Shown here: piece by piece, positions 3,201 to 19,271 of the stretch | Position numbering within the stretch: position 1 is the stretch's first letter | Layout: each line of letters starts with the position of its first letter | Source of the DNA: Flavobacteriales bacterium | GTDB taxonomy: Bacteria > Bacteroidota > Bacteroidia > Flavobacteriales > BACL11 | Direction: 5' to 3' | Assembly (NCBI GenBank): GCA_014381465.1 | Contig: JACNLP010000027.1 | Location: forward strand, 1,685-65,684 | DNA: 64,000 bases | Translations under genes and position numbers: made by a program | The notes under the pieces: model-generated | The model's input: the letters and a program-made list of their open reading frames with translations, nothing else | Told to the model about the DNA's origin: nothing | Databases searched by the model: none

Positions 3201-3576
3201 AGTGTGGGATGTTTTTAATAATTCTGCCGAACAAGAAATAGATTTTTATGTAACGGATGCCATTGATTTTACTTTGTCAGAACTTTTGAATTACCCAAAT
3301 CCTTTTAAAGAATATACCAATTTTTATTTTCAACATAATAGGGCAGGAGAAATTTTAGAAGTAGAGTTGCAAATTTTTGATTTATCGGGTAGAATGGTAG
3401 CTTCTATAAAAGAAAATAAGTATGATGAGGGATATAGAGTTGGCCCTATAAATTGGGATGGAACTACAAATTCTGGTGAAAAATTGGGTGCTGGAATTTA
3501 TGTTTATCGCTTTAATGTTAAAGCGGAAGATGGCACTTTAGAAAGTAAAGCAGAAAAACTAATAATATTAAGATAA
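217..3576 (+). CDS. porU: Type IX secretion system sortase PorU (C25 peptidase family)
   Basis: 1119 aa; signal peptide, GNWYKI N-terminus, C25 motifs LLLFGD, GHG and ATCEF, T9SS CTD; upstream of porV. Confidence 0.93.
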   Translation: MKNLLFLLFIFCFSLSSKSEENINSVLANGNWYKIAVQQDGVYKISYSNLSDLGINTSNLSCDKIRIFGNGGGMLPKLNNDFRHDGLQENAIKVVDNNNNGVFESGDYILFFGQSPDRWNYNETDNRFHHQKNLFSRKTYYFITTDMGNGGKRIQSKSTPNFDVSVSEFDDFAFHEQDLENFIKSGAQWYGEKFDLTNTYNFSFSFPNIDDSTPVYIKTSVAARSFSASSFLVKTNSTNIQSISVAQADPHYTADYAKLSSSSATFTGQPNMEISVSYNQPQNTSVGWLNFLELNARRQLKMSGNQMLFRDVQSVADSVNAKFVISNATSNLIVWDVTNSVNIKERVASFSSSKTTFISSTDSLKEYLAFNGNSFYSTELIGKISNQNLHGSSDDVEYVIVSHPNFLSAANDLAAYHEQQDGINTIVVTPQQIYNEFSSGAQDISAIRDFMRMFYKKPNSKIKYLLLFGDGSYDPLNRISSNTNFIPSFQSNNSVSPTQSYVTDDYFGLLDDSEGNFANDLVDIGIGRFPVQTLTEANNMVDKVKRYNGKMSFGDWRNKVTFIADDGDAADGNTHMWQADSLANIIDDNYKNINIKKIYLDAFTQESTPGGPRSPDAQKAITESVEKGSLLINYSGHGGELGWTKERILEVGQINKWENENNLPLFVTATCEFSRFDDPDRISAGEYTLLNKNGGAIALLSTTRLVYASPNYFLNKQFVKVLFEKENGESPRLGDLFRQTKVNSGTALNNRNFTLLGDPALCLAYPDLNVSTTAISDTISALGEVTISGKIEDENGTLASNFNGVVFPTVYDKQEILKTLGQESSTQMPYRSQNNILYKGKASVTNGTFSFSFIVPKDIAYNFGSGRISYYAVSADSLQDASGYDESFTIGGTSSNITADFDGPEIELFINNEQFVSGGMTNEDPLLFAILNDFSGINTVGNGIGHDIIAVLDNETNQSISLNDYYTADIDNYKSGSVAYPFYDLEKGHHTLHLKVWDVFNNSAEQEIDFYVTDAIDFTLSELLNYPNPFKEYTNFYFQHNRAGEILEVELQIFDLSGRMVASIKENKYDEGYRVGPINWDGTTNSGEKLGAGIYVYRFNVKAEDGTLESKAEKLIILR

Positions 3577-3637: not shown

Positions 3638-4813
3638 ATGAGAAAGATTTTTTTGATAGTTATTGCCTTTGCATTTTGTGTGCAAACCTTTGGGCAAGAT
3701 AATGCAATGCACAGAACGGATCAATTGAACACTATTACTACTTCTGTTCCTTTCCTTATAATAGGGCCGGATTCCAGAAGCGGTGGTATGGGAGATGTGG
3801 GGGTGGCTTCTACGCCTGATGCAAATTCAATGCATTGGAATCCTGCAAAATATGCTTTTGTTAAAGATGATATGGGAATCGCTATGAATTATGTGCCATG
3901 GCTTAGGTCATTGGTTCCTGATATTTCTCTTTCTTATCTTTCCGGATATTTTAAAAGAAACGATAATGAAACTATTGGCTTTTCCCTTAGATATTTTTCC
4001 TTAGGAGATATTACATTTACAAATAATACTGGAGGTGAAATTGGGCAATACAACCCAAATGAATTCGCTTTCTCTGGGGCTTATGCCCGTAAGCTTTCCG
4101 AGCATTATTCTATTGCAATTGCAGCAAGATATATTCGTTCAGATCTTACTGGAGGGCAAACACTTACTGGGTCAGGAAATATGTCAACACATGCAGGACA
4201 ATCCATTGCTGCCGATATATCTTCTTATTTTACTAAAGAAGTACGAATAGCAAAAAAAGATTTTGATTGGGCAATGGGCTTAAATATTTCTAATCTGGGA
4301 AATAAAATATCCTATACCGAGACAGCAGTAAGAGATTTTATTCCTATCAATATGCGTTTTGGAACTTCCATTGGAACCGATTTTGATGACTATAATAGAA
4401 TGAGTATAGAGTTTGATGTCAATAAATTGTTGGTTCCAACACCGCCTTCAAGAAATGGTGATGGTGAAATAAATGGAGGAATGGATCCAGATGTGTCGGT
4501 AGTAAATGGGGTATTTCAGTCTTTTTGGGATGCACCAGGAGGAACAAAAGAAGAGTTTAGAGAATTGAATTATTCAACAGGGTTAGAATATTGGTATGCC
4601 GAGCAATTTGCCATACGAGCAGGGTATTTTTATGAGCATCCTACAAAAGGAGACAGGCAATATTTCACCATGGGAGCGGGTGTAAAATACAATGTTTTTG
4701 TTTTGGATTTCTCTTATTTAATTGATGCGAGTAGCTCTATAAATGGAAGTAATCCACTTGCAAATACAATTCGCTTTTCTATGACTTGGAATCTTGGAGA
4801 GGTTGCAAATTAA
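3638..4813 (+). CDS. porV: T9SS outer-membrane shuttle PorV
   Basis: ITTSVPFL..PDSR.GGMGD and HWNPAKY motifs; conserved porU-porV-ispF order. Confidence 0.93.
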   Translation: MRKIFLIVIAFAFCVQTFGQDNAMHRTDQLNTITTSVPFLIIGPDSRSGGMGDVGVASTPDANSMHWNPAKYAFVKDDMGIAMNYVPWLRSLVPDISLSYLSGYFKRNDNETIGFSLRYFSLGDITFTNNTGGEIGQYNPNEFAFSGAYARKLSEHYSIAIAARYIRSDLTGGQTLTGSGNMSTHAGQSIAADISSYFTKEVRIAKKDFDWAMGLNISNLGNKISYTETAVRDFIPINMRFGTSIGTDFDDYNRMSIEFDVNKLLVPTPPSRNGDGEINGGMDPDVSVVNGVFQSFWDAPGGTKEEFRELNYSTGLEYWYAEQFAIRAGYFYEHPTKGDRQYFTMGAGVKYNVFVLDFSYLIDASSSINGSNPLANTIRFSMTWNLGEVAN

Positions 4814-14759: not shown

Positions 14760-15469
14760 ATTAAGATTAATCTATCAGAAGAAGTAGCGTTAAAATCTTC
14801 CAATTTATAGTTGCCAAAGATATCAATAATTCTTAGCCCTGCATTACTTATAAATGTAGAAAAATCAGCCAAAGTGATTGTCTTTACTTTTTCTTGAAAA
14901 TGTTGTTTTTCAGTTCCGTTAATAATTTCAATATCTTTAATAATATGTCCGTTCTCTACTTTCCTTGTAATCTTAAATAGTATATCATCAATACTCTTTT
15001 GTTCTTCTAGTACTAAATTAGTAATTACCTTTTTCACATTCATAAAATCAATAATCAAAATTCCTTCTAATTTTAAATTACTAGCCATAGCATTTATGGC
15101 TTTTTGTTCATCTTTAGTATCCTCAAAATAACCAAAAGAGGTAAATAAATTAGTAACAACATCAAAGTTGTTTTTTTGATATACCTCACGCATATCGTGT
15201 ACTGCAAAATTCAGAGTTGTATTTTTATCTTTTTTGGCAGCACTTATACTGTTAGGCGATAAATCAACCCCAACAACATCCATTCCTTTTTGATTAAAGT
15301 ATTTTGCATGCCTTCCTTTTCCACAGGCAATATCAATGAGTTTACTCCCCTTTTTAATCTGTAAGTGAGCAACTAAATTGTCAATAAATGCTTGCGCTTC
15401 TTTTTCATCTCTATTTTTATAGAGGGTATGGTAGTAGAGGGAATCAAACCAGCTTGTAAACCAACTCAT
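14747..15469 (-). CDS. Class I SAM-dependent methyltransferase
   Basis: DIACGKGRH, GVDLS, FTSFGYF motifs. Confidence 0.85.
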   Translation of the reverse strand: MSWFTSWFDSLYYHTLYKNRDEKEAQAFIDNLVAHLQIKKGSKLIDIACGKGRHAKYFNQKGMDVVGVDLSPNSISAAKKDKNTTLNFAVHDMREVYQKNNFDVVTNLFTSFGYFEDTKDEQKAINAMASNLKLEGILIIDFMNVKKVITNLVLEEQKSIDDILFKITRKVENGHIIKDIEIINGTEKQHFQEKVKTITLADFSTFISNAGLRIIDIFGNYKLEDFNATSSDRLILICKK

Positions 15470-15810
15470 AATTGTTCTCTTAATTTTTTAGGCATATTTT
15501 TTACCACCAATTTGTAAGAATCGGCAATCCACTCTTCAATTTGTTTGTCGCTTAAATCCCCAGTAAAACTTACGGAATTCCAATGTTTTTTGTTCATGTG
15601 CCAAGCAGGAGTTACTTCCGTGTGTTCTTCTCTTAAATTTATTGCTTTTTCAGGATCACATTTTAAGTTGCAAAACTCAAACGACATCATATTACAAAGT
15701 GCAAACATTTTACCGACCACTTTAAATACTAAGGTGTCTTCATCAAAAGGCAATTCTTCTGTTGTTCCTTTGAATGATAAGCAATATTTTCTGAAATGGT
15801 CAAGGGTCAT
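15466..15810 (-). CDS. MmcQ/YjbR-family DNA-binding protein
   Basis: PFD..TLVFKV.GKMFA, NLKCDP, WHMNKKHW motifs. Confidence 0.88.
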   Translation of the reverse strand: MTLDHFRKYCLSFKGTTEELPFDEDTLVFKVVGKMFALCNMMSFEFCNLKCDPEKAINLREEHTEVTPAWHMNKKHWNSVSFTGDLSDKQIEEWIADSYKLVVKNMPKKLREQL

Positions 15811-15902
15811 AAGGGCAAATATAAGGTCTTTATGTAATTAATTAGAAACTATTTTGATAGATTTTTATAAGAACCACACGATACAATCGTGCGGGAGCTA
15901 GG
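15753..15902. repeat. 150-bp direct repeat copy 1 (mmcQ 5' end + promoter + REP hairpin)
   Basis: Aligns to 16723-16872 at offset 970; 2 mismatches in the 122 bp nearest the REP, 6 in the distal 28 bp. Confidence 0.92.
15874..15902 (+). repeat. REP-like hairpin R1
   Basis: CCACACGATACAATCGTGCGGGAGCTAGG; stem CACGAT/ATCGTG. Confidence 0.88.
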
Positions 15903-16030
15903 TCATAGTTGCAAATGTAGTTAAATCAATTTTTTTGGTTATATTTAAAATATTCTTTGTACTTTGAAACGCAAAATTTTAACATCTTAACCAAGCAAAT
16001 AGGGTAAAAATTTTAAATAATAATGAGTTT

Positions 16031-16684
16031 ATGACGATAATCAAGAAAATGAGAAGCAACTGTCCAAGTTGTGGTAAAGTTGTAGAAAAATCAGGTTTTA
16101 TGAGTTTTAACTATTCAAATACGAACTTATATTCTGATGGAAATAAGCAGGGAGGAGAGGATTTAGATTTTGCATCACCCATAGTTAGTTGTTTCAATTG
16201 TAAAGAGTATTTTTTTGAGGGAGATATATTTTCTGTATGGTTTAATTCTGTTGATGAATCAGATGAAGAAATAAATGAGTCTGAAGTAGGCTCTATGTAT
16301 GCTGCAAGGGTTACAGATATTTATAAGTTGCTAGAGAGTAAAAATTCAAAATTTATTAAAGATGCTTTTAATTTGTATAAATATATTATTCAATGCTTAA
16401 ATCAAGTATTTTTGAGTAATGGCAAACTATATAACTACCAGAAAGAGATTTATTATAATTCTATTGATAGAACTATTGAGATTTTAGAAAGTAAAGAAGT
16501 AGTTGGTAAAAGTGAAAGCTCTAAAATTCTTTTTCTTGCAGAACTTTATAGATACCAAGAGGAGTATGAGAAAAGTTTAGAAATATTAAATACTATTAAC
16601 AATAGAGAGTATAGAAATTTTGTAACTCAACTTAAAGAAGCGTGTAAACAGAAAATTAAGAATTGTATAATTATTAACAAATAA
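16031..16684 (+). CDS. Hypothetical cargo protein: two CxxC motifs plus C-terminal TPR-like helices
   Basis: CPSC and CFNC; LAELYRY...EKSLEIL helix; lies between the two 150-bp repeats. Confidence 0.65.
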   Translation: MTIIKKMRSNCPSCGKVVEKSGFMSFNYSNTNLYSDGNKQGGEDLDFASPIVSCFNCKEYFFEGDIFSVWFNSVDESDEEINESEVGSMYAARVTDIYKLLESKNSKFIKDAFNLYKYIIQCLNQVFLSNGKLYNYQKEIYYNSIDRTIEILESKEVVGKSESSKILFLAELYRYQEEYEKSLEILNTINNREYRNFVTQLKEACKQKIKNCIIINK

Positions 16685-16720
16685 AAATTAATTTAAACTT
16701 AAACCCTTTAAGGGCTAGTC

Positions 16721-16780
16721 TTATTCCTCAGTTGTTCCTTTAAGTGAAAGGCAATATTCTCTGAAATGGTCAAGGGTCAT
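16721..16780 (-). pseudogene. Truncated diverged relic of mmcQ/yjbR 5' end (MTLDHFREYCLSLKGTTEE*)
   Basis: 17/19 aa identical to the N-terminus of 15466..15810, with synonymous changes; stop at 16721-16723. Confidence 0.85.
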
Positions 16781-16872
16781 AAGGGCAAATATAAGTTCTT
16801 TATGTAATTAATTAGAAACTATTTTGATAGATTTTTATAAGAACCACACGATACAATCGTGCGGGAGCTAGG
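16723..16872. repeat. 150-bp direct repeat copy 2 including REP hairpin R2 (16844-16872)
   Basis: See copy 1; identity ends exactly after GGGAGCTAGG. Confidence 0.92.
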
Positions 16873-16913
16873 ATTTAATTTTCAATAATAATTAAACAAT
16901 AAAATATAAAAAG

Positions 16914-17662
16914 ATGAATTTTAGATTAACAAATAAACAGAAGCGAGTATTTATGATATTCATTAGTATTAATTTCATTATACTAATAATAAACCTATTT
17001 AGCCTTAGCCCTTCATTTAAGTTTACAAAAATTGACAAAGAAGAAAAAGCTAAATATGATCAATTGATGATTGAAAAAAAACTTGCTTTAATAGAAAAAG
17101 ATAAATTAACTAGTAAATATAAAGAATTTAATTCAGATTTTTATTTAATCGAAAAGGAAGGAATATGTAAAACCTTAATGCCAAATTTCAAGTCAAAATC
17201 AGGTGGTTTTGATTTTACAGAAGTTGATAAGTGGCAACATAAGCAGACTGGAAAATGTGAATATTGTTATGATATTTCAGACTCTCTAAAAAAAGTTTAT
17301 GATAGATTTATTGAGTTAGAAGATTTAATTGAAAGACAAGAATGGAAAATTGAAAGAATAGATTTAGAAAAGATTTATAAATGTTATATTTTAACGGATA
17401 TATATGTAGGAGATCAATCTACTAATGATTGGAATTCTAGAGGAAGAAGGAAATTTAATAATATTGATTATTTCATAGAAATAAAACCTAATCAATTTTA
17501 TCCTTTTGTTAATTTTGTAAGAGAAGGTAACCTTTTGGGTCGATAAATGAACGGTCTCAAAATGTAATAATAAGAGGTCTATTCCCTGATTATGATTATA
17601 CAGAGTTTATTGTGTACAGTTTATTGTTGCTAGGTATATTTTGGTTCAAGAATAATTGGTAA
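16914..17662 (+). pseudogene. Hypothetical membrane protein (cargo ORF B), apparently frameshifted near 17531-17543
   Basis: N-terminal TM and coiled coil to 17546; another frame is open 17531-17662 and encodes ...RGLFPDYDYTEFIVYSLLLLGIFWFKNNW* (C-terminal TM). Confidence 0.6.
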
Positions 17663-17664
17663 CT

Positions 17665-17806
17665 ACCCAGCTCCCGCACGATTTTATCGTGTGGTTTTGT
17701 AGTTTATCTAATAATAATAACATCATTTAATATTCACCCAGCTCCCGCACGATTTTATCGTGTGGTTTTGTAGTTTATCTAACAATAATAACATTATTTA
17801 ATATTC
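17665..17806 (-). repeat. Tandem 2 x 71-bp repeat (RAYT 3' end + REP hairpins R3 17666-17694 and R4 17737-17765)
   Basis: Units 17665-17735 and 17736-17806 differ at 2 positions; hairpin on minus strand reads CCACACGATAAAATCGTGCGGGAGCTGGG. Confidence 0.92.
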
Positions 17807-18329
17807 CTTTTCTACCGCTATAATCTCCTGCACTACTATATACATAGTCTTCTGCTCTAAAAACAAAACCCGCTTCAACTGGGTTATTATGAATGTAATT
17901 AATTTTTTCATCAATCACTTTATTACTCCATAATTCAATTGGTTTATTATCATGCCTCCAAAATTGATATTTTTTTACATTGGAACTTTCTTTTCCAGCT
18001 TTTAAGAACTCAGATAATAACCATTTTTTTCTGCTTTCTTGTGGGTTTTCTTCAATTGCTTTTACGATTGCTTTACTAGTAAACCTTTTCATATCACCAA
18101 TAAGAAGCTCTGGTTTATAAGAATTAACGCTTCTAAAAATAAGATGAATATGATTTGTCATAATACACCAAGCAAAGATCTCCATTCCTTTTTCTTTTTG
18201 ACAATAATGTAAACTTTCAATAATGATATTTTTGTATTTATTTCTTGTAAAAACATCAAGCCAATTAACAACTGCAAAGCTTATAAAATAAGTTCCTTCT
18301 GGATTATGAAATTTGTAATTGCGGCTCAT
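17775..18329 (-). mobile_element. REP-associated tyrosine transposase (RAYT/TnpA-REP, HUH Y1 family), REPtron
   Basis: 184 aa; YFISF, HUH motif MTNHIHLI, QFWRH, catalytic YIHNNPV, YSSA; flanked on both sides by oppositely oriented hairpins. Confidence 0.9.
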
Positions 18330-18345
18330 TTTTAACTATTTAACT

Positions 18346-18523
18346 TTTTATTGTTCCCACACGATACAATCGTTCGGAAGCATTTTAATAAATGCTAATA
18401 CTACCTTTTATTGTTCCCACACGATACAATCGTTCGGAAGCATCTTATAAATGCTTATACTACCTTTTATTGTTCCCACAGGATACAATCGTGCGGAAGC
18501 ATCTTATAAATGCTAATACTACC
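18346..18523 (+). repeat. Tandem 3 x 59-60-bp repeat containing REP hairpins R5-R7 (18357-18381, 18417-18441, 18476-18500) plus a second AGCAT/ATGCT hairpin
   Basis: Units 18346-18405, 18406-18464 and 18465-18523 are nearly identical. Confidence 0.92.
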
Positions 18524-19271
18524 CTCTCTGCCTTAAGGCTTCATATAAAATAACACCAGTAGCAACCGATACATTTAAGGAAGCAATTTTTCCAGCCATA
18601 GGGATTTTTGCTCTCGCATCACACATTTTTAAAAACTCAGGAGATACTCCATCTTCCTCCGACCCCATAATAATTGCAGTAGGTGGGATGTAGTCCGGCT
18701 TATACATATTGTCCTGTGTTTTTTCAGTACAGCCAACCAATTGTATTCCGCTATCTTTCATGAATTGCAAAGCCAATTTCAAATTCCAAGTACGGCAAAC
18801 TGTAATTTTATGCAAGGCTCCAGCTGAGGTTTTTATCGCATCAGCATTAATGGCAGCCGCATTTTGTTCAGGAATTATAATTGCATCTACTCCGGCACAT
18901 TCGGCAGTACGAGCAATCGCCCCAAAGTTTCTTACATCTGTAATTCTATCTAAAACTAAAACAAGAGGATTTTTCCCTTGTTCGTATAAATTTGGGACTA
19001 CATCCTCAATATTATGAAAGTCGATAGGGGAGATGAAAGCAAAAACTCCTTGGTGATTTTTTCTTGTCAAACGATTGATTTTCTCTAGAGGAACATGCTT
19101 GTAATTTATTCTTTTTTCACGGACTAATTTCCAGAGTTCAGCAAATAAATCATTGTGCAATCCTTTTTGGATAAATAGTTTGTCAATTGTTTTTCCGGCT
19201 TCTACTGCTTCAATTATTGGCCTAATACCAAAAATAAAGTTGGCTTTGTCTTTGTCGTCTTTCCTGTTCAT
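18519..19271 (-). CDS. rlmB: 23S rRNA (G2251-2'-O)-methyltransferase RlmB (TrmH/SpoU)
   Basis: NHQG, DRITDVRNFGAIAR, MGSEEDG, SLNVSVA motifs. Confidence 0.92.
   Translation of the reverse strand: MNRKDDKDKANFIFGIRPIIEAVEAGKTIDKLFIQKGLHNDLFAELWKLVREKRINYKHVPLEKINRLTRKNHQGVFAFISPIDFHNIEDVVPNLYEQGKNPLVLVLDRITDVRNFGAIARTAECAGVDAIIIPEQNAAAINADAIKTSAGALHKITVCRTWNLKLALQFMKDSGIQLVGCTEKTQDNMYKPDYIPPTAIIMGSEEDGVSPEFLKMCDARAKIPMAGKIASLNVSVATGVILYEALRQRG

What the first reader, a model, noticed from the sequence alone, without database searches (positions are those of the whole stretch)
15753..18523. RAYT/REP locus organised like an integron-style gene-capture site
Seen: between core genes mmcQ and rlmB lie an HUH-Y1 RAYT and seven copies of one imperfect hairpin, oriented + + / - - / RAYT / + + +. 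I found no other copy in the 64 kb. Two orphan AT-rich ORFs each begin shortly after a hairpin. At R1-R4 the repeat identity stops at the same point, just after GGGAGCT(A/G)GG, which defines a fixed junction 3' of the stem. Diverged stubs of the neighbouring genes accompany the hairpins. Established: RAYTs (TnpA-REP) nick and rejoin ssDNA next to REP hairpins, but their cellular role is unresolved. Inference: here the RAYT repeatedly splices incoming DNA at the hairpin 3' edge, with homology on the other side, building a variable cassette array.
Basis: partly seen in the sequence, partly recalled or inferred. Interest (0 to 1): 0.82.

Follow-up and report, generated by a model that had tools for sequence, protein, structure and literature searches.

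The report
RAYT gene with REP hairpin repeats
A domesticated transposase gene (RAYT) and its small hairpin repeats sit in a variable spot of a small marine bacterial genome; the fixed 3' ends of the repeats mark places where neighbouring DNA was copied or swapped, but the locus is not an integron-like gene-capture array.

Summary
The seven hairpins, their orientations and the shared end of identity are real (none expected by chance). The gene is a single-copy HUH-Y1 RAYT of the Bacteroidota subclass 2.6/group 5. It is bracketed by inverted REPs, which makes it a REPtron. The same unit (tail-REP-RAYT-REP-tail) recurs in metagenome loci. It lies in a gap after rlmB that varies across the family even without a RAYT.

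The cassette-array reading fails for ORF1. A same-genus genome (G006) holds the ORF1 segment at 94% identity, flanked on both sides by mmcQ 5' ends and without hairpin R1. R1 plus its spacer is a 96-nt extra copy bounded by GGTCAT.

The 3' tail of the hairpin is nevertheless a recurrent breakpoint. Every copy family shares its 5' flank and ends 8-9 nt after the stem. At both REPs shared with G006, homology stops at the tail. All 7 G006 REPs sit at breaks in collinearity, and two are joined to duplicated gene fragments.

Best reading: a REPtron whose tail is a break-and-rejoin site, probably nicked by the RAYT. It is a new member of a known kind and moderately interesting.

The parts
15466..15810 (-). 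YjbR/mmcQ-like gene (114 aa), intact. Its allele has K8 and F13.
   Evidence: Pfam PF04237, E 1.4e-31. Directly follows rlmB with a 3-5 nt gap in G001, G008, G017 and G028.
15811..15873 (.). Spacer S1 (63 nt) between the mmcQ start and R1. On the minus strand it carries TATATTTG 5 nt before the ATG.
   Evidence: S1 plus R1 differs from S2 plus R2 at 1 of 92 nt. Reading TATATTTG as a Bacteroidetes -7 box relies on a recalled consensus.
15874..15902 (+). REP R1: hairpin 15874-15894 (loop ACA, A.C mismatch) plus tail GAGCTAGG.
   Evidence: ssDNA fold -5.5 kcal/mol (z -2.5); the complementary strand folds at -7.4 (z -4.6).
15901..15906 (.). GGTCAT, a second copy of the mmcQ start (15805-15810). 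The two copies bound the 96 nt that G006 lacks.
15907..16723 (+). ORF1 segment. ORF1 (16031-16684, 217 aa) is a Zn-ribbon (CPxC...CxxC) plus helical protein.
   Evidence: 94% identical over 959 nt to G006:C23. Family alignment A4. DUF2225-like by Atlas features and structure.
16724..16780 (-). mmcQ 5' stub, 19 codons (MTLDHFREYCLSLKGTTEE), followed by a stop.
   Evidence: Its residues equal the first 19 of the G001 allele. The stub is also present in G006.
16781..16872 (+). Spacer S2 (16781-16843) plus REP R2 (hairpin 16844-16864, tail GAGCTAGG).
   Evidence: (family D1). The orthologous REP lies at G006:C23:4863-4883, and homology to G006 ends at 16866.
16873..17664 (+). ORF2 segment, lying between the tails of R2 and R3. 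ORF2 is 16914-17546 (210 aa, hydrophobic N-terminus).
   Evidence: Only its own cluster among 5.8 billion clusters. No credible match in 60 family genomes. No usable Atlas hit.
17665..17735 (-). R3 unit (71 nt): tail 17665-17673, hairpin 17674-17694 (loop AAA), and a copy of the last ~32 nt of the RAYT gene with its 9-nt spacer (17695-17735).
   Evidence: family D3 (97% to the R4 unit).
17736..17765 (-). REP R4: tail 17736-17744 (GAGCTGGGT), hairpin 17745-17765. This is the downstream REP of the REPtron.
   Evidence: The joint R4 tail | GAATATT shows no microhomology.
17775..18329 (-). RAYT (TnpA-REP), 184 aa, with H60-I-H62, Y145 (YIHNNP) and YSSAGDY.
   Evidence: Pfam Y1_Tnp. Translation. 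The only copy in the genome. 70-84% identical to the 80 metagenome relatives kept.
18343..18523 (+). Three tandem units of 59-60 nt (R5 18357-18377, R6 18417-18437, R7 18476-18496). Each is a degenerate REP plus a second hairpin AAGCAT..ATGCTT. The last unit overlaps the rlmB stop codon.
   Evidence: (families D2, D5). Fold -8.3 kcal/mol, z -4.4.
18519..19271 (-). rlmB-like SpoU methyltransferase, a core gene.
   Evidence: Found in 39 of 41 family genomes.

Best explanation
The locus is a REPtron. It holds one RAYT gene (HUH-Y1, Bacteroidota subclass 2.6 / group 5), bracketed by inverted REP hairpins whose outward-facing ends carry an 8-9 nt tail. It sits in a gap downstream of rlmB that turns over in this bacterial family whether or not a RAYT is present.

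Shown: the tail end is where rearrangements begin or stop. REPs here have multiplied as units made of '5' flank + hairpin + tail': R3 from R4, R5-R7, S-R1 from S-R2, and the C85 copy from the tRNA-Ser copy. Between close genomes, the DNA beyond the tail has been replaced or joined to copied gene fragments.

Inferred: the RAYT (or, less likely, a fork stalled at the hairpin) leaves a 3' end at the tail. That end is then re-joined, or primes copying, elsewhere with little or no homology. This gives one-ended, flank-carrying copies and replaces the neighbour.

ORF1 did not arrive that way. It came in earlier through recombination anchored in mmcQ, which left a 19-codon stub. ORF2 and the RAYT lie beyond the R2 tail, and how they arrived is open.
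For: Identity as a REPtron:
- Y1_Tnp domain.
- The motifs NHIH and YIHNNP, an SS motif, 184 aa and an HUH-to-Y spacing of 85 (translation) fit the subclass 2.6 row of PMC6006769 (passages read).
- Single copy in the genome.
- Among the 80 best metagenome relatives, 57 of 78 loci with room have a reverse REP within 250 nt upstream, 46 of 73 have a forward REP downstream, and 37 of 71 have both.
- The stem covaries: 51 CACG/CGTG, 33 CGCG/CGCG and 1 mixed, among 94 distinct REPs picked by a pattern.
- Homology between those loci that spans the RAYT but is shorter than 1.5 kb never runs more than about 50 nt past a hairpin, and it peaks 0-14 nt beyond it.

Variable gap: in 15 of 29 relatives' loci the methyltransferase gene follows rlmB within 20 nt. 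In the others mmcQ or other DNA lies there.

Tail as breakpoint:
- The four copy families share 41 to about 120 nt of 5' flank and nothing beyond the tail.
- 19 of 20 REP pairs with shared flank behave the same way.
- The 5' flank of the C85 copy is made of pieces found beside tRNA-Ser in G000 and G006.
- G000 and G006 share the R2 and tRNA-Ser REPs with their 5' flanks, and diverge at the tail.
- All 7 G006 REPs have a 5' flank collinear with one G000 place and a 3' flank from elsewhere. Two 20-kb control stretches are collinear in blocks of about 3-8 kb.
- Two G006 tails are joined to 145-nt and 187-nt 3'-end fragments of genes that G006 also holds whole elsewhere.
- L131 and L142 are 98-99% identical up to the REP tail, and then unrelated for 1.3 versus 5.1 kb.

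ORF1.
Against: - No biochemistry: cleavage at the tail is inferred only.
- G006 has 7 REPs at breakpoints, but no group-5 RAYT was found in it with this protein query. Its only clear Y1_Tnp match lies in a 1118-aa open frame. So either the joints are old, or the gene is unassembled, or the RAYT is not needed.
- The hairpins are weak (-5.5 kcal/mol, z about -2 to -2.5 on the tail-bearing strand), and R5-R7 are decaying.
- REPs may simply accumulate or persist in variable DNA, which would also place them at collinearity breaks.
- My control is rough. It covers only two stretches, and several block ends coincide with contig ends.
- Stubs arise without hairpins too: the ORF1 joints here, and a 126-nt stub in L092 whose novel joint lies 126 nt from the REP.
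- Both genomes are fragmented metagenome assemblies.
- Which of G000 and G006 holds the ancestral state is unknown for the 96-nt S-R1 difference.
Confidence: 0.55

Rival explanations
1. Integron-style capture. The RAYT repeatedly splices incoming genes at the 3' edge of a hairpin, with homology on the other side. This builds an ordered array of cassettes (ORF1, ORF2) that serves the cell as a gene-acquisition site.
For: - Two same-strand ORFs each follow an identical spacer-plus-hairpin unit.
- ORF2 lies exactly between two tails.
- The DNA beyond the R2 tail differs between G000 and G006.
- ORF2 has no relatives, and the ORF1 family is rare: 3 of 400 other class genomes.
- In related locus L134, REP units alternate with small ORFs.
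Against: - ORF1's joints are with mmcQ sequence, not with a hairpin, and R1 is missing from G006.
- ORF1 relatives elsewhere have no REP (0 of 4 loci).
- Neighbours of 75 related RAYT loci are heterogeneous and include housekeeping genes: 86 families over 137 ORFs.
- The only promoter-like box in the repeated unit points away from the ORFs (the consensus is recalled).
- No strain series shows cassette turnover. Runs of three studies carry identical pieces.
Confidence: 0.08
2. Passive repeats in a hot spot. The RAYT and REPs are passengers. The tandem units arise by slippage or template switching at hairpins, and larger changes arise by ordinary illegitimate or short-homology recombination. The shared 3' boundary is only the end of the repeated element. 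REPs sit at collinearity breaks because they land in, or survive in, dispensable variable DNA.
For: - The gap after rlmB varies in relatives that lack both RAYT and REP.
- ORF1 entered without a hairpin joint.
- The L092 stub joint is not at a REP.
- G006 has REP junctions but no RAYT was detected.
- One G006 joint shows microhomology (CAGGG) inside the tail.
Against: - The R4|R3 joint has no microhomology.
- 5' boundaries vary from 14 to 126 nt, while 3' boundaries fall within 5-12 nt of the stem in 19 of 20 pairs. That asymmetry is not expected from slippage.
- The tail is conserved in sequence (NAGCGGGG / GAGCTRGG) at a fixed distance across loci, which suggests that it is recognised.
- 7 of 7 G006 REPs lie at breaks, with 5' flanks intact over 1-1.5 kb.
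Confidence: 0.27
3. Imported island. The RAYT, the REPs and the strain-specific genes beside them came together from a REP-rich donor. On this view the hairpins mark foreign DNA rather than making the joints.
For: - The RAYT was not found in 36 same-family genomes. The nearest matches (58-71% identity) are in other families of the order.
- REPs occur in only 2 of 9 genus genomes.
- Genes beyond the tails are strain-specific: p126 in 0 of 40 genomes, ORF2 in 0 of 60, and p345 matches only through its common C-terminal domain.
- The C85 copy lies inside a segment of about 5 kb that G006 lacks.
Against: - The 5' flanks of R2 and of the tRNA-Ser copy are native DNA (the mmcQ stub, and tRNA plus terminator), and they are conserved with the REP in G006.
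- REP copies carry native flank sequence to new places.
- GC content of the interval (22-31%) is close to that of its neighbours.
Confidence: 0.08
4. Assembly artefact. The duplicated units are mis-joins of repeats in a metagenome assembly.
For: Public-run contigs break at every repeat, so none spans two units.
Against: - Error-free pieces that cross each unique-to-repeat joint occur in runs of three studies.
- The short repeat pieces have about 1.4-1.9 times the word depth of their neighbours (table 8; the tool warns that depth is not a copy number).
- G006, assembled separately, has ORF1-stub-spacer-REP.
Confidence: 0.02

Closest known systems
REPtron / TnpA-REP (RAYT) subclass 2.6 of Quentin et al. 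2018 (= RAYT group 5 of Bertels et al. 2017), mostly Bacteroidetes
   Same: Y1_Tnp core, NH[LIV]H and YIH[QN]NP motifs, SS motif, about 180 aa, long HUH-to-Y spacing, single copy, gene flanked by hairpins that lack a GTAG foot, and copies of the hairpin elsewhere in the genome (paper passages).
   Different: - The main text of the paper says only 'atypical secondary structures'. Here the repeat is defined: a 9-bp stem with a conserved A.C mismatch, a 3-6 nt loop and an 8-9 nt 3' tail.
- This genome has very few copies (9), and 7 of them lie at the RAYT locus.
- The table's WQ motif reads WR here.
- Supplementary Table S1 of that paper may list such motifs, but I could not open it.
IS200/IS605 family (IS608, ISDra2) single-strand 'peel and paste' transposition
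   Same: A Y1 HUH enzyme with subterminal hairpins at both ends. The right end is defined by a cut a few nucleotides 3' of a hairpin (recalled: about 10 nt for IS608). No target duplication. The unit tail-REP-RAYT-REP-tail occurs in unrelated contexts at 85-91% nucleotide identity.
   Different: One copy per genome. The copies that multiply lack a left end and carry arbitrary 5' flank. No circle junction or target motif has been shown.
REPINs (inverted REP doublets moved by RAYTs; Bertels and Rainey 2011, search listing only)
   Same: Non-autonomous repeats tied to a single RAYT. Related locus L134 has head-to-head doublets of about 170 nt that hold a RAYT 5' stub.
   Different: This genome has no doublets. 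Its units are single REPs with host flank.
IS91 / ISCR one-ended rolling-circle elements (recalled)
   Same: An HUH enzyme, one fixed end and a variable extent of adjacent DNA carried along.
   Different: Those use Y2 Rep-like transposases, have ori and ter ends, and carry kilobases. Here the flanks are 14-126 nt and the enzyme is a Y1 RAYT.
Integrons (IntI, attI/attC)
   Same: Recombination sites that work as folded single-strand hairpins, and small ORFs in one orientation next to a recombinase gene.
   Different: No tyrosine-recombinase integrase, no attC diversity, no Pc promoter facing the ORFs, and no demonstrated cassette turnover. ORF1's joints are not at hairpins.
REP-associated duplications and REP-targeted insertions in enterobacteria (Shyamala et al. 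1990, recalled; IS1397 and IS621 targeting of REPs, passage in PMC3184786)
   Same: REPs as sites where rearrangements and insertions cluster.
   Different: Those involve REP-REP homology or other transposases. Here one side of the joint is a REP tail and the other side is unrelated DNA.

Membership tests
RAYT / TnpA-REP subclass 2.6 (group 5) | Y1_Tnp (PF01797) core with HUH and catalytic Tyr | tested here: met
   PF01797 E 2.7e-9, 37.6 bits against a cut-off of 23. H60-I-H62 and Y145 in the translation.
RAYT / TnpA-REP subclass 2.6 (group 5) | Subclass motifs NH[LIV]H, YIH[QN]NP and SS; about 179 aa; HUH-to-Y spacing about 82; 'WQ' | tested here: met
   NHIH, YIHNNP, YSSAGDY, 184 aa and spacing 85, compared with the table row read. 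The WQ position reads WR, so that one motif is not met.
RAYT / TnpA-REP subclass 2.6 (group 5) | Single copy per genome | tested here: met
   1 match in the 1.98-Mb assembly. The assembly is 97% complete.
REPtron | Gene flanked by its cognate hairpins in inverted orientation | tested here: met
   R4 lies downstream (same strand as the gene) and R5-R7 lie upstream (opposite strand), with tails facing outward. The same layout holds in 37 of 71 related loci with room on both sides.
REPtron | Copies of the hairpin dispersed in the genome | tested here: met
   Only 2 copies lie outside the locus (C77, C85). That is far fewer than classical REP families.
REPtron | RAYT cleaves and rejoins its REP | not testable with these tools
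   Needs purified protein and single-stranded oligonucleotides.
REPIN | Two inverted REPs a short distance apart that form one long hairpin | tested here: not met
   No doublet among the 9 copies. R2 and R3 face tail to tail, 793 nt apart.
Integron | IntI-type tyrosine recombinase next to attI | tested here: not met
   Pfam on the ORFs of the interval finds only Y1_Tnp.
Integron | Cassettes each ending in an attC, with joints at the recombination site | tested here: not met
   The ORF1 segment is bounded by mmcQ 5' sequence on both sides in G006. Only the ORF2 segment lies between two tails.
Integron | Cassette content varies among close relatives at fixed joints | tested here: inconclusive
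   The DNA beyond the R2 tail differs between G000 and G006, while ORF1 is shared. No other relative carries the locus.
IS200/IS605 insertion sequence | Multiple identical copies of the whole element, each with a left and a right end | tested here: not met
   One RAYT copy. However, the unit occurs in unrelated contexts across metagenomes.

The most novel reading that the evidence does not exclude
The tail of group-5 RAYT REPs may be a programmed recombinogenic end. On this reading the RAYT nicks 8-9 nt 3' of the hairpin. The freed 3' end is then transferred, or primes copying, at unrelated sites. Each REP thereby becomes a one-ended 'copy and swap' point that (i) spreads as REP-plus-host-flank units, (ii) picks up fragments of other genes, and (iii) drives turnover of accessory genes next to it in Bacteroidota, including the small-ORF arrays downstream of RHS-repeat proteins where related RAYTs are found. 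That would give RAYTs a cellular role: local diversification of genome content.
Probability: 0.25. Interest if true: 0.75.

Novelty: new member of a known kind. Interest (0 to 1): 0.5.

Why it matters
The cellular role of RAYTs is unresolved, and the Bacteroidota subclass is described in print only as having 'atypical secondary structures' (PMC6006769, passages read).

This genome is a very small test case. It has one RAYT and nine REPs, and every copy event can be reconstructed. A sister genome shows what changed at the same sites. Together they make a sharp, testable prediction: the enzyme should cut 8-9 nt 3' of the stem, and structural variants should end there.

If that holds, REPs of this class are active makers of gene-content differences between close marine Bacteroidota, not just passive repeats. 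If it fails, the locus is an ordinary REPtron parked in a hot spot.

I found no paper that describes REP tails as synteny breakpoints for this RAYT group. That rests on two full-text searches only, and supplements were not available.

Tried and rejected
- ORF1 and ORF2 as pure orphans. This was rejected for ORF1. The word-based search found only its own cluster. A full HMMER scan then found 38 proteins at E<=0.001, ORF1 itself among them, and G006 holds an orthologue.
- S-R1 as a copy that restores a lost mmcQ promoter. This was dropped. The left end of the ORF1 segment carries its own TAnnTTTG-like box at the same distance from the ATG in both G000 and G006 (the consensus is recalled).
- The 5' flank of the C77 and C85 copies as a RAYT 3' stub. 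The similarity is not significant (local alignment p 0.12-0.54 against shuffles).
- Enrichment of immunity-type families next to related RAYTs. Not seen: 2 of 137 neighbours are SUKH-type. RHS-repeat giants do occur upstream in some loci, but that sample was hand-picked.
- Known RNA families in 15300-18900: none at E<=0.1.
- Structural variants in public runs: no joints were reported. The runs are kept as contigs that break at the repeats, so nothing follows from this, and uncovered bins in run X1 mean nothing.
- Loose ends suggest that parts of the ORF1 region (from 15929, 16003 or 16077, and up to 16329) lie in other contexts in those samples. The six loose-end strings are not in this assembly. 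I could not follow this further.
- A scan of genome contigs with the ORF1 alignment could not run.
- The cluster look-up for ORF1, ORF2 and the RAYT could not be made.
- Earlier findings of this scan could not be consulted.
- No structure prediction or complex prediction was run.

Full report
**1. What is there**

The motif CCACACGATACAATCGTGCGG (up to 3 mismatches) occurs seven times in the window and nowhere else in it:
- 15874 and 16844 on the + strand;
- 17674 and 17745 on the - strand;
- 18357, 18417 and 18476 on the + strand.

None of 100 shuffles gave a single match.

Pfam names the flanking genes YjbR/mmcQ-like (15466-15810, -) and SpoU/rlmB-like (18519-19271, -). The gene between the hairpins (17775-18329, -) is Y1_Tnp. 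The two + strand ORFs (16031-16684 and 16914-17546) match no family above threshold.

Each repeat is a 9-bp stem with one A.C mismatch, a 3-nt loop and an unpaired 3' tail, GAGCTRGG plus one base. As single-stranded DNA the tail-bearing strand folds at -5.5 kcal/mol (z about -2 to -2.5). The complementary strand, where the mismatch becomes G.T, folds at -7.4 kcal/mol (z -4.6).

There are two subtypes:
- loop ACA: R1, R2 and R5-R7, which lie opposite to the RAYT gene;
- loop AAA: R3 and R4, which lie on the same strand as the RAYT gene.

R5-R7 are degenerate, with two stem mismatches each and a different tail. Each is followed by a second small hairpin.

The whole assembly (1.98 Mb, 85 contigs) has only two more copies, on C77 and C85, and a single Y1_Tnp gene.

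**2. The gene and its family**

The protein has H60-I-H62, Y145 within YIHNNP, a YSS motif and 184 residues. The HUH-to-Y spacing is 85. These values match the row for subclass 2.6 in Quentin et al. 2018. That row gives NH[LIV]H, YIH[QN]NP, SS, 179 aa, median spacing 82 and 'atypical secondary structures', mostly in Bacteroidetes. The paper equates subclass 2.6 with RAYT group 5 of Bertels et al. 2017 (PMC6006769, passages only; PMC5581495, passages only). The table's WQ motif reads WR here.

A scan of metagenome contigs confirmed 539 relatives among 595 candidate stretches. The 80 best are 70-84% identical. With a strict pattern:
- 57 of 78 loci with room have a reverse-oriented REP within 250 nt upstream;
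- 46 of 73 have a forward REP downstream;
- 37 of 71 have both.

Among 94 distinct REPs picked by the pattern, 51 have CACG/CGTG, 33 have CGCG/CGCG and 1 is mixed. This is a compensatory change, and the A.C mismatch is kept throughout. The tail consensus is NAGCGGGG. The pattern itself limits what could be seen.

Homology between loci that spans the RAYT, for matches shorter than 1.5 kb, either stops at the coding region or runs to 0-14 nt beyond a hairpin. It never extends more than about 50 nt further. So tail-REP-RAYT-REP-tail is the conserved unit, and it sits in unrelated contexts. This is a REPtron, which is a known kind of locus.

**3. The site**

rlmB is found in 39 of 41 genomes of the family. 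Across 29 relatives' loci, the DNA downstream of rlmB looks like this:
- in 15, a methyltransferase gene follows within 20 nt;
- in 5, it follows after 56-261 nt;
- in 4 (G001, G008, G017, G028), mmcQ follows rlmB after a 3-5 nt gap;
- in 1, mmcQ follows after 141 nt;
- in 1, only a 21-codon mmcQ remnant is left;
- in 3, neither gene is seen.

Three genomes (G001, G008, G017) also carry a further 850-890 nt between mmcQ and the methyltransferase gene. None of these relatives has the hairpin, and 0 of 36 same-family genomes has the RAYT. So this gap turns over regardless of RAYT, and mmcQ is not a core gene.

**4. The sister genome settles ORF1**

Of 9 genomes in the genus, only G000 and G006 carry the hairpin; G006 has 7 copies. 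G006 contig C23 holds the orthologous locus, in this order:
- methyltransferase gene;
- full-length mmcQ;
- the ORF1 segment (959 nt at 94% identity);
- a 19-codon mmcQ stub;
- a diverged spacer;
- a REP.

In G006 the ORF1 segment starts directly at the mmcQ start codon (...GGTCAT|GTTTGC). In G000, 96 extra nucleotides lie there. They consist of spacer S1, hairpin R1 and its tail, and they are bounded by GGTCAT at 15805-15810 and 15901-15906.

S1-R1 differs from S2-R2 at 1 of 92 positions. The adjoining 57 coding nucleotides differ at about 7 positions. The stub encodes MTLDHFREYCLSLKGTTEE. These are the residues of the G001 allele, and they include the Glu8 that G001, G008, G017 and G028 all carry. 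The intact gene has K8 and F13.

My reading, which is inference, has two parts. First, ORF1 entered before G000 and G006 split, through recombination with one homologous anchor in mmcQ or the methyltransferase gene and one illegitimate joint at mmcQ codon 19. This pattern is known as homology-facilitated illegitimate recombination (recalled). Second, S1-R1 is either a recent copy of the R2 unit or a unit that G006 deleted between the GGTCAT repeats. In neither case was ORF1 spliced in at a hairpin.

ORF1 itself is a real protein of a diverged family, with a CPxC...CxxC zinc ribbon followed by a helical part:
- 38 proteins match at E<=0.001, ORF1 itself among them; the best other match is 37% identical;
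- it is DUF2225-like by Atlas features and structure;
- it is rare, found in 3 of 400 other genomes of the class;
- it is not hairpin-linked elsewhere (0 of 4 loci).

ORF2 has no relatives in any search.

**5. The tail is a recurrent breakpoint**

(a) All nine REPs fall into four copy families, and each family shares its 5' flank:
- R1/R2, about 120 nt;
- R3/R4, 41 nt, including the last codons of the RAYT gene;
- R5-R7, tandem units of 59-60 nt that include 4-5 nt of the rlmB end;
- the C77 and C85 copies, 52 nt (alignment score 80; 0 of 2000 shuffles reached it).

Outside the tandem array, none of the families shares sequence beyond the tail.

(b) In the window and the 89 related loci scanned, 20 REP pairs share flank. 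The 5' extension is 14-126 nt. The 3' identity ends 5-12 nt after the stem in 19 of them; the exception is the tandem pair R6/R7. Some of these pairs (in L134) are head-to-head doublets, for which this pattern is expected.

(c) The joint between the R4 tail and the R3 unit shows no microhomology.

(d) The C85 copy's 5' flank is a composite. It combines 52 nt found next to tRNA-Ser in G000 with a terminator hairpin found next to the same tRNA in G006. So a unit of about 100 nt of tRNA-side flank plus the REP was copied to a new place, ending at the tail.

(e) G000 and G006 share two REPs with their 5' flanks: R2, and the copy beside tRNA-Ser. At both, homology ends at the tail and unrelated genes follow.

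(f) For all 7 G006 REPs, one G000 place matches 975-1506 nt of the 5' flank and stops 0-110 nt before the stem. The 3' flank matches another contig, or a place more than 1 kb away. Two 20-kb control stretches of the window are collinear with G006 in blocks of about 3-8 kb, and several block ends are merely contig ends. This control is rough, but seven of seven is far above it.

(g) Two G006 tails are joined to the middle of coding sequence. One fragment is 187 nt and the other 145 nt. G006 also holds both genes whole on other contigs. My naming of them as ispG-like and helicase-like is by eye only. One of these joints uses the microhomology CAGGG inside the tail.

(h) Two metagenome loci, L131 and L142, are 98-99% identical through 5.8 kb and through the REPtron. 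Exactly after the tail they become unrelated, for 1.3 versus 5.1 kb.

**6. Mechanism**

Shown: the 3' boundary is fixed, the 5' boundaries vary, and the joints connect to unrelated or duplicated DNA.

Inferred: a 3' end is generated 8-9 nt beyond the stem. This is the geometry of the right end of IS200/IS605 elements (recalled: about 10 nt for IS608). That end is then rejoined or extended elsewhere, giving one-ended, flank-carrying copies and replacement of the neighbouring DNA. The RAYT is the obvious candidate for making the cut, because HUH-Y1 enzymes cut single-stranded DNA next to their hairpins. The conserved tail at a fixed distance also suggests recognition.

Points against this mechanism:
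- there is no assay;
- no RAYT was found in G006 with the protein query, and its only clear Y1_Tnp hit lies in a 1118-aa open frame;
- the hairpins are weak;
- stubs also arise away from hairpins (the ORF1 joints; L092);
- REPs may simply persist in variable DNA.

**7. Verdict on the integron analogy**

There is no integrase and there are no attC-like sites. The only promoter-like box in the repeated unit faces mmcQ, not the ORFs. ORF1 is shared with G006, and its joints are not at hairpins. The neighbours of related RAYTs are a mixed set: 86 Pfam families over 137 ORFs, including housekeeping genes. The analogy therefore does not hold as stated.

What survives is narrower: the 3' edge of the REP is a fixed junction at which adjacent DNA differs between close genomes.

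**8. Novelty and score**

The locus is a new member of a known kind, a group-5 / subclass 2.6 REPtron. The breakpoint behaviour of the tail could interest specialists, because the role of RAYTs is still open and this nine-copy system is fully tractable. However, the evidence rests on two fragmented metagenome assemblies and on one pair of related loci. Interest 0.5.

I found no paper on this point in two full-text searches.

Noticed in passing
L081:148-5373, L123:254-5113, L082:152-4753, L086:121-5424 (metagenome loci; RAYT at about 6001): Related RAYTs often lie a few hundred bases downstream of giant same-strand ORFs. Three of six that I scanned have RHS repeats; one of those also has TcdB_toxin_midN and FG-GAP, and a fourth has FG-GAP only. 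The six were hand-picked for size, so this gives no frequency.
   Followed up: partly
L134:1-4874: A contig starts with what looks, by eye, like the end of an Rhs-type protein. It then alternates small signal-peptide ORFs (168, 251 and 195 aa) with REP doublets of about 170 nt. One of the doublets holds a 61-codon ORF that begins like the RAYT. A full RAYT follows at 3656-4219.
   Followed up: partly
G056:C18:60036-61922 (L007, L013): Two full RAYT copies (each 71% identical to the query) lie in tandem, 1335 nt apart, with REPs between them.
   Followed up: no
G006:C3:25473-25772 (L181): A Y1_Tnp match (E 1.1e-15) lies inside an open frame of 1118 aa in the sister genome, which lacks a group-5 RAYT by protein search.
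   Followed up: no
L055:4331-5195, L057:6613-7463, L058:6553-7444: In G001, G008 and G017, 850-890 nt of unexamined DNA lie between mmcQ and the methyltransferase gene. The two genes overlap in this window.
   Followed up: no
L092:1273-1398 and 3370-3495: A 126-nt direct repeat (81% identical) of a gene's 3' end brackets two extra ORFs. The second copy abuts the tail of the REP upstream of a RAYT. Relative L118 has that gene end directly beside a REP.
   Followed up: partly
window 18378-18405, 18438-18464 and 18497-18523: Each R5-R7 unit carries a second hairpin, AAGCAT(N7)ATGCTT. It could serve as the rlmB terminator.
   Followed up: no
window 15929-16329 (runs X1, X4, X12): Public-run contigs match parts of the ORF1 region and then run on into sequence that is not in this assembly. 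This hints that the ORF1 5' half exists in other contexts in the same waters.
   Followed up: partly
L162, L163, L164 (G243, G441): Three other members of the ORF1 family are 334-345 aa long, with a C-terminal extension. One lies near a small pair of ORFs that look, by eye, like an HTH antitoxin with its toxin.
   Followed up: no
window 15943-15974 and G000:C54:17282-17313: A 32-nt stretch upstream of ORF1 recurs at 97% identity on another contig. It may be a shared promoter-like element.
   Followed up: no
G000:C85:3783-4817 (L144): The 345-aa gene that ends 6 nt after the C85 REP tail shares only its last 40-155 residues with dozens of proteins per genome across the family. I take this, without a Pfam test, to be a type IX secretion sorting domain. 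Its body found no match in the 40 family genomes searched.
   Followed up: partly
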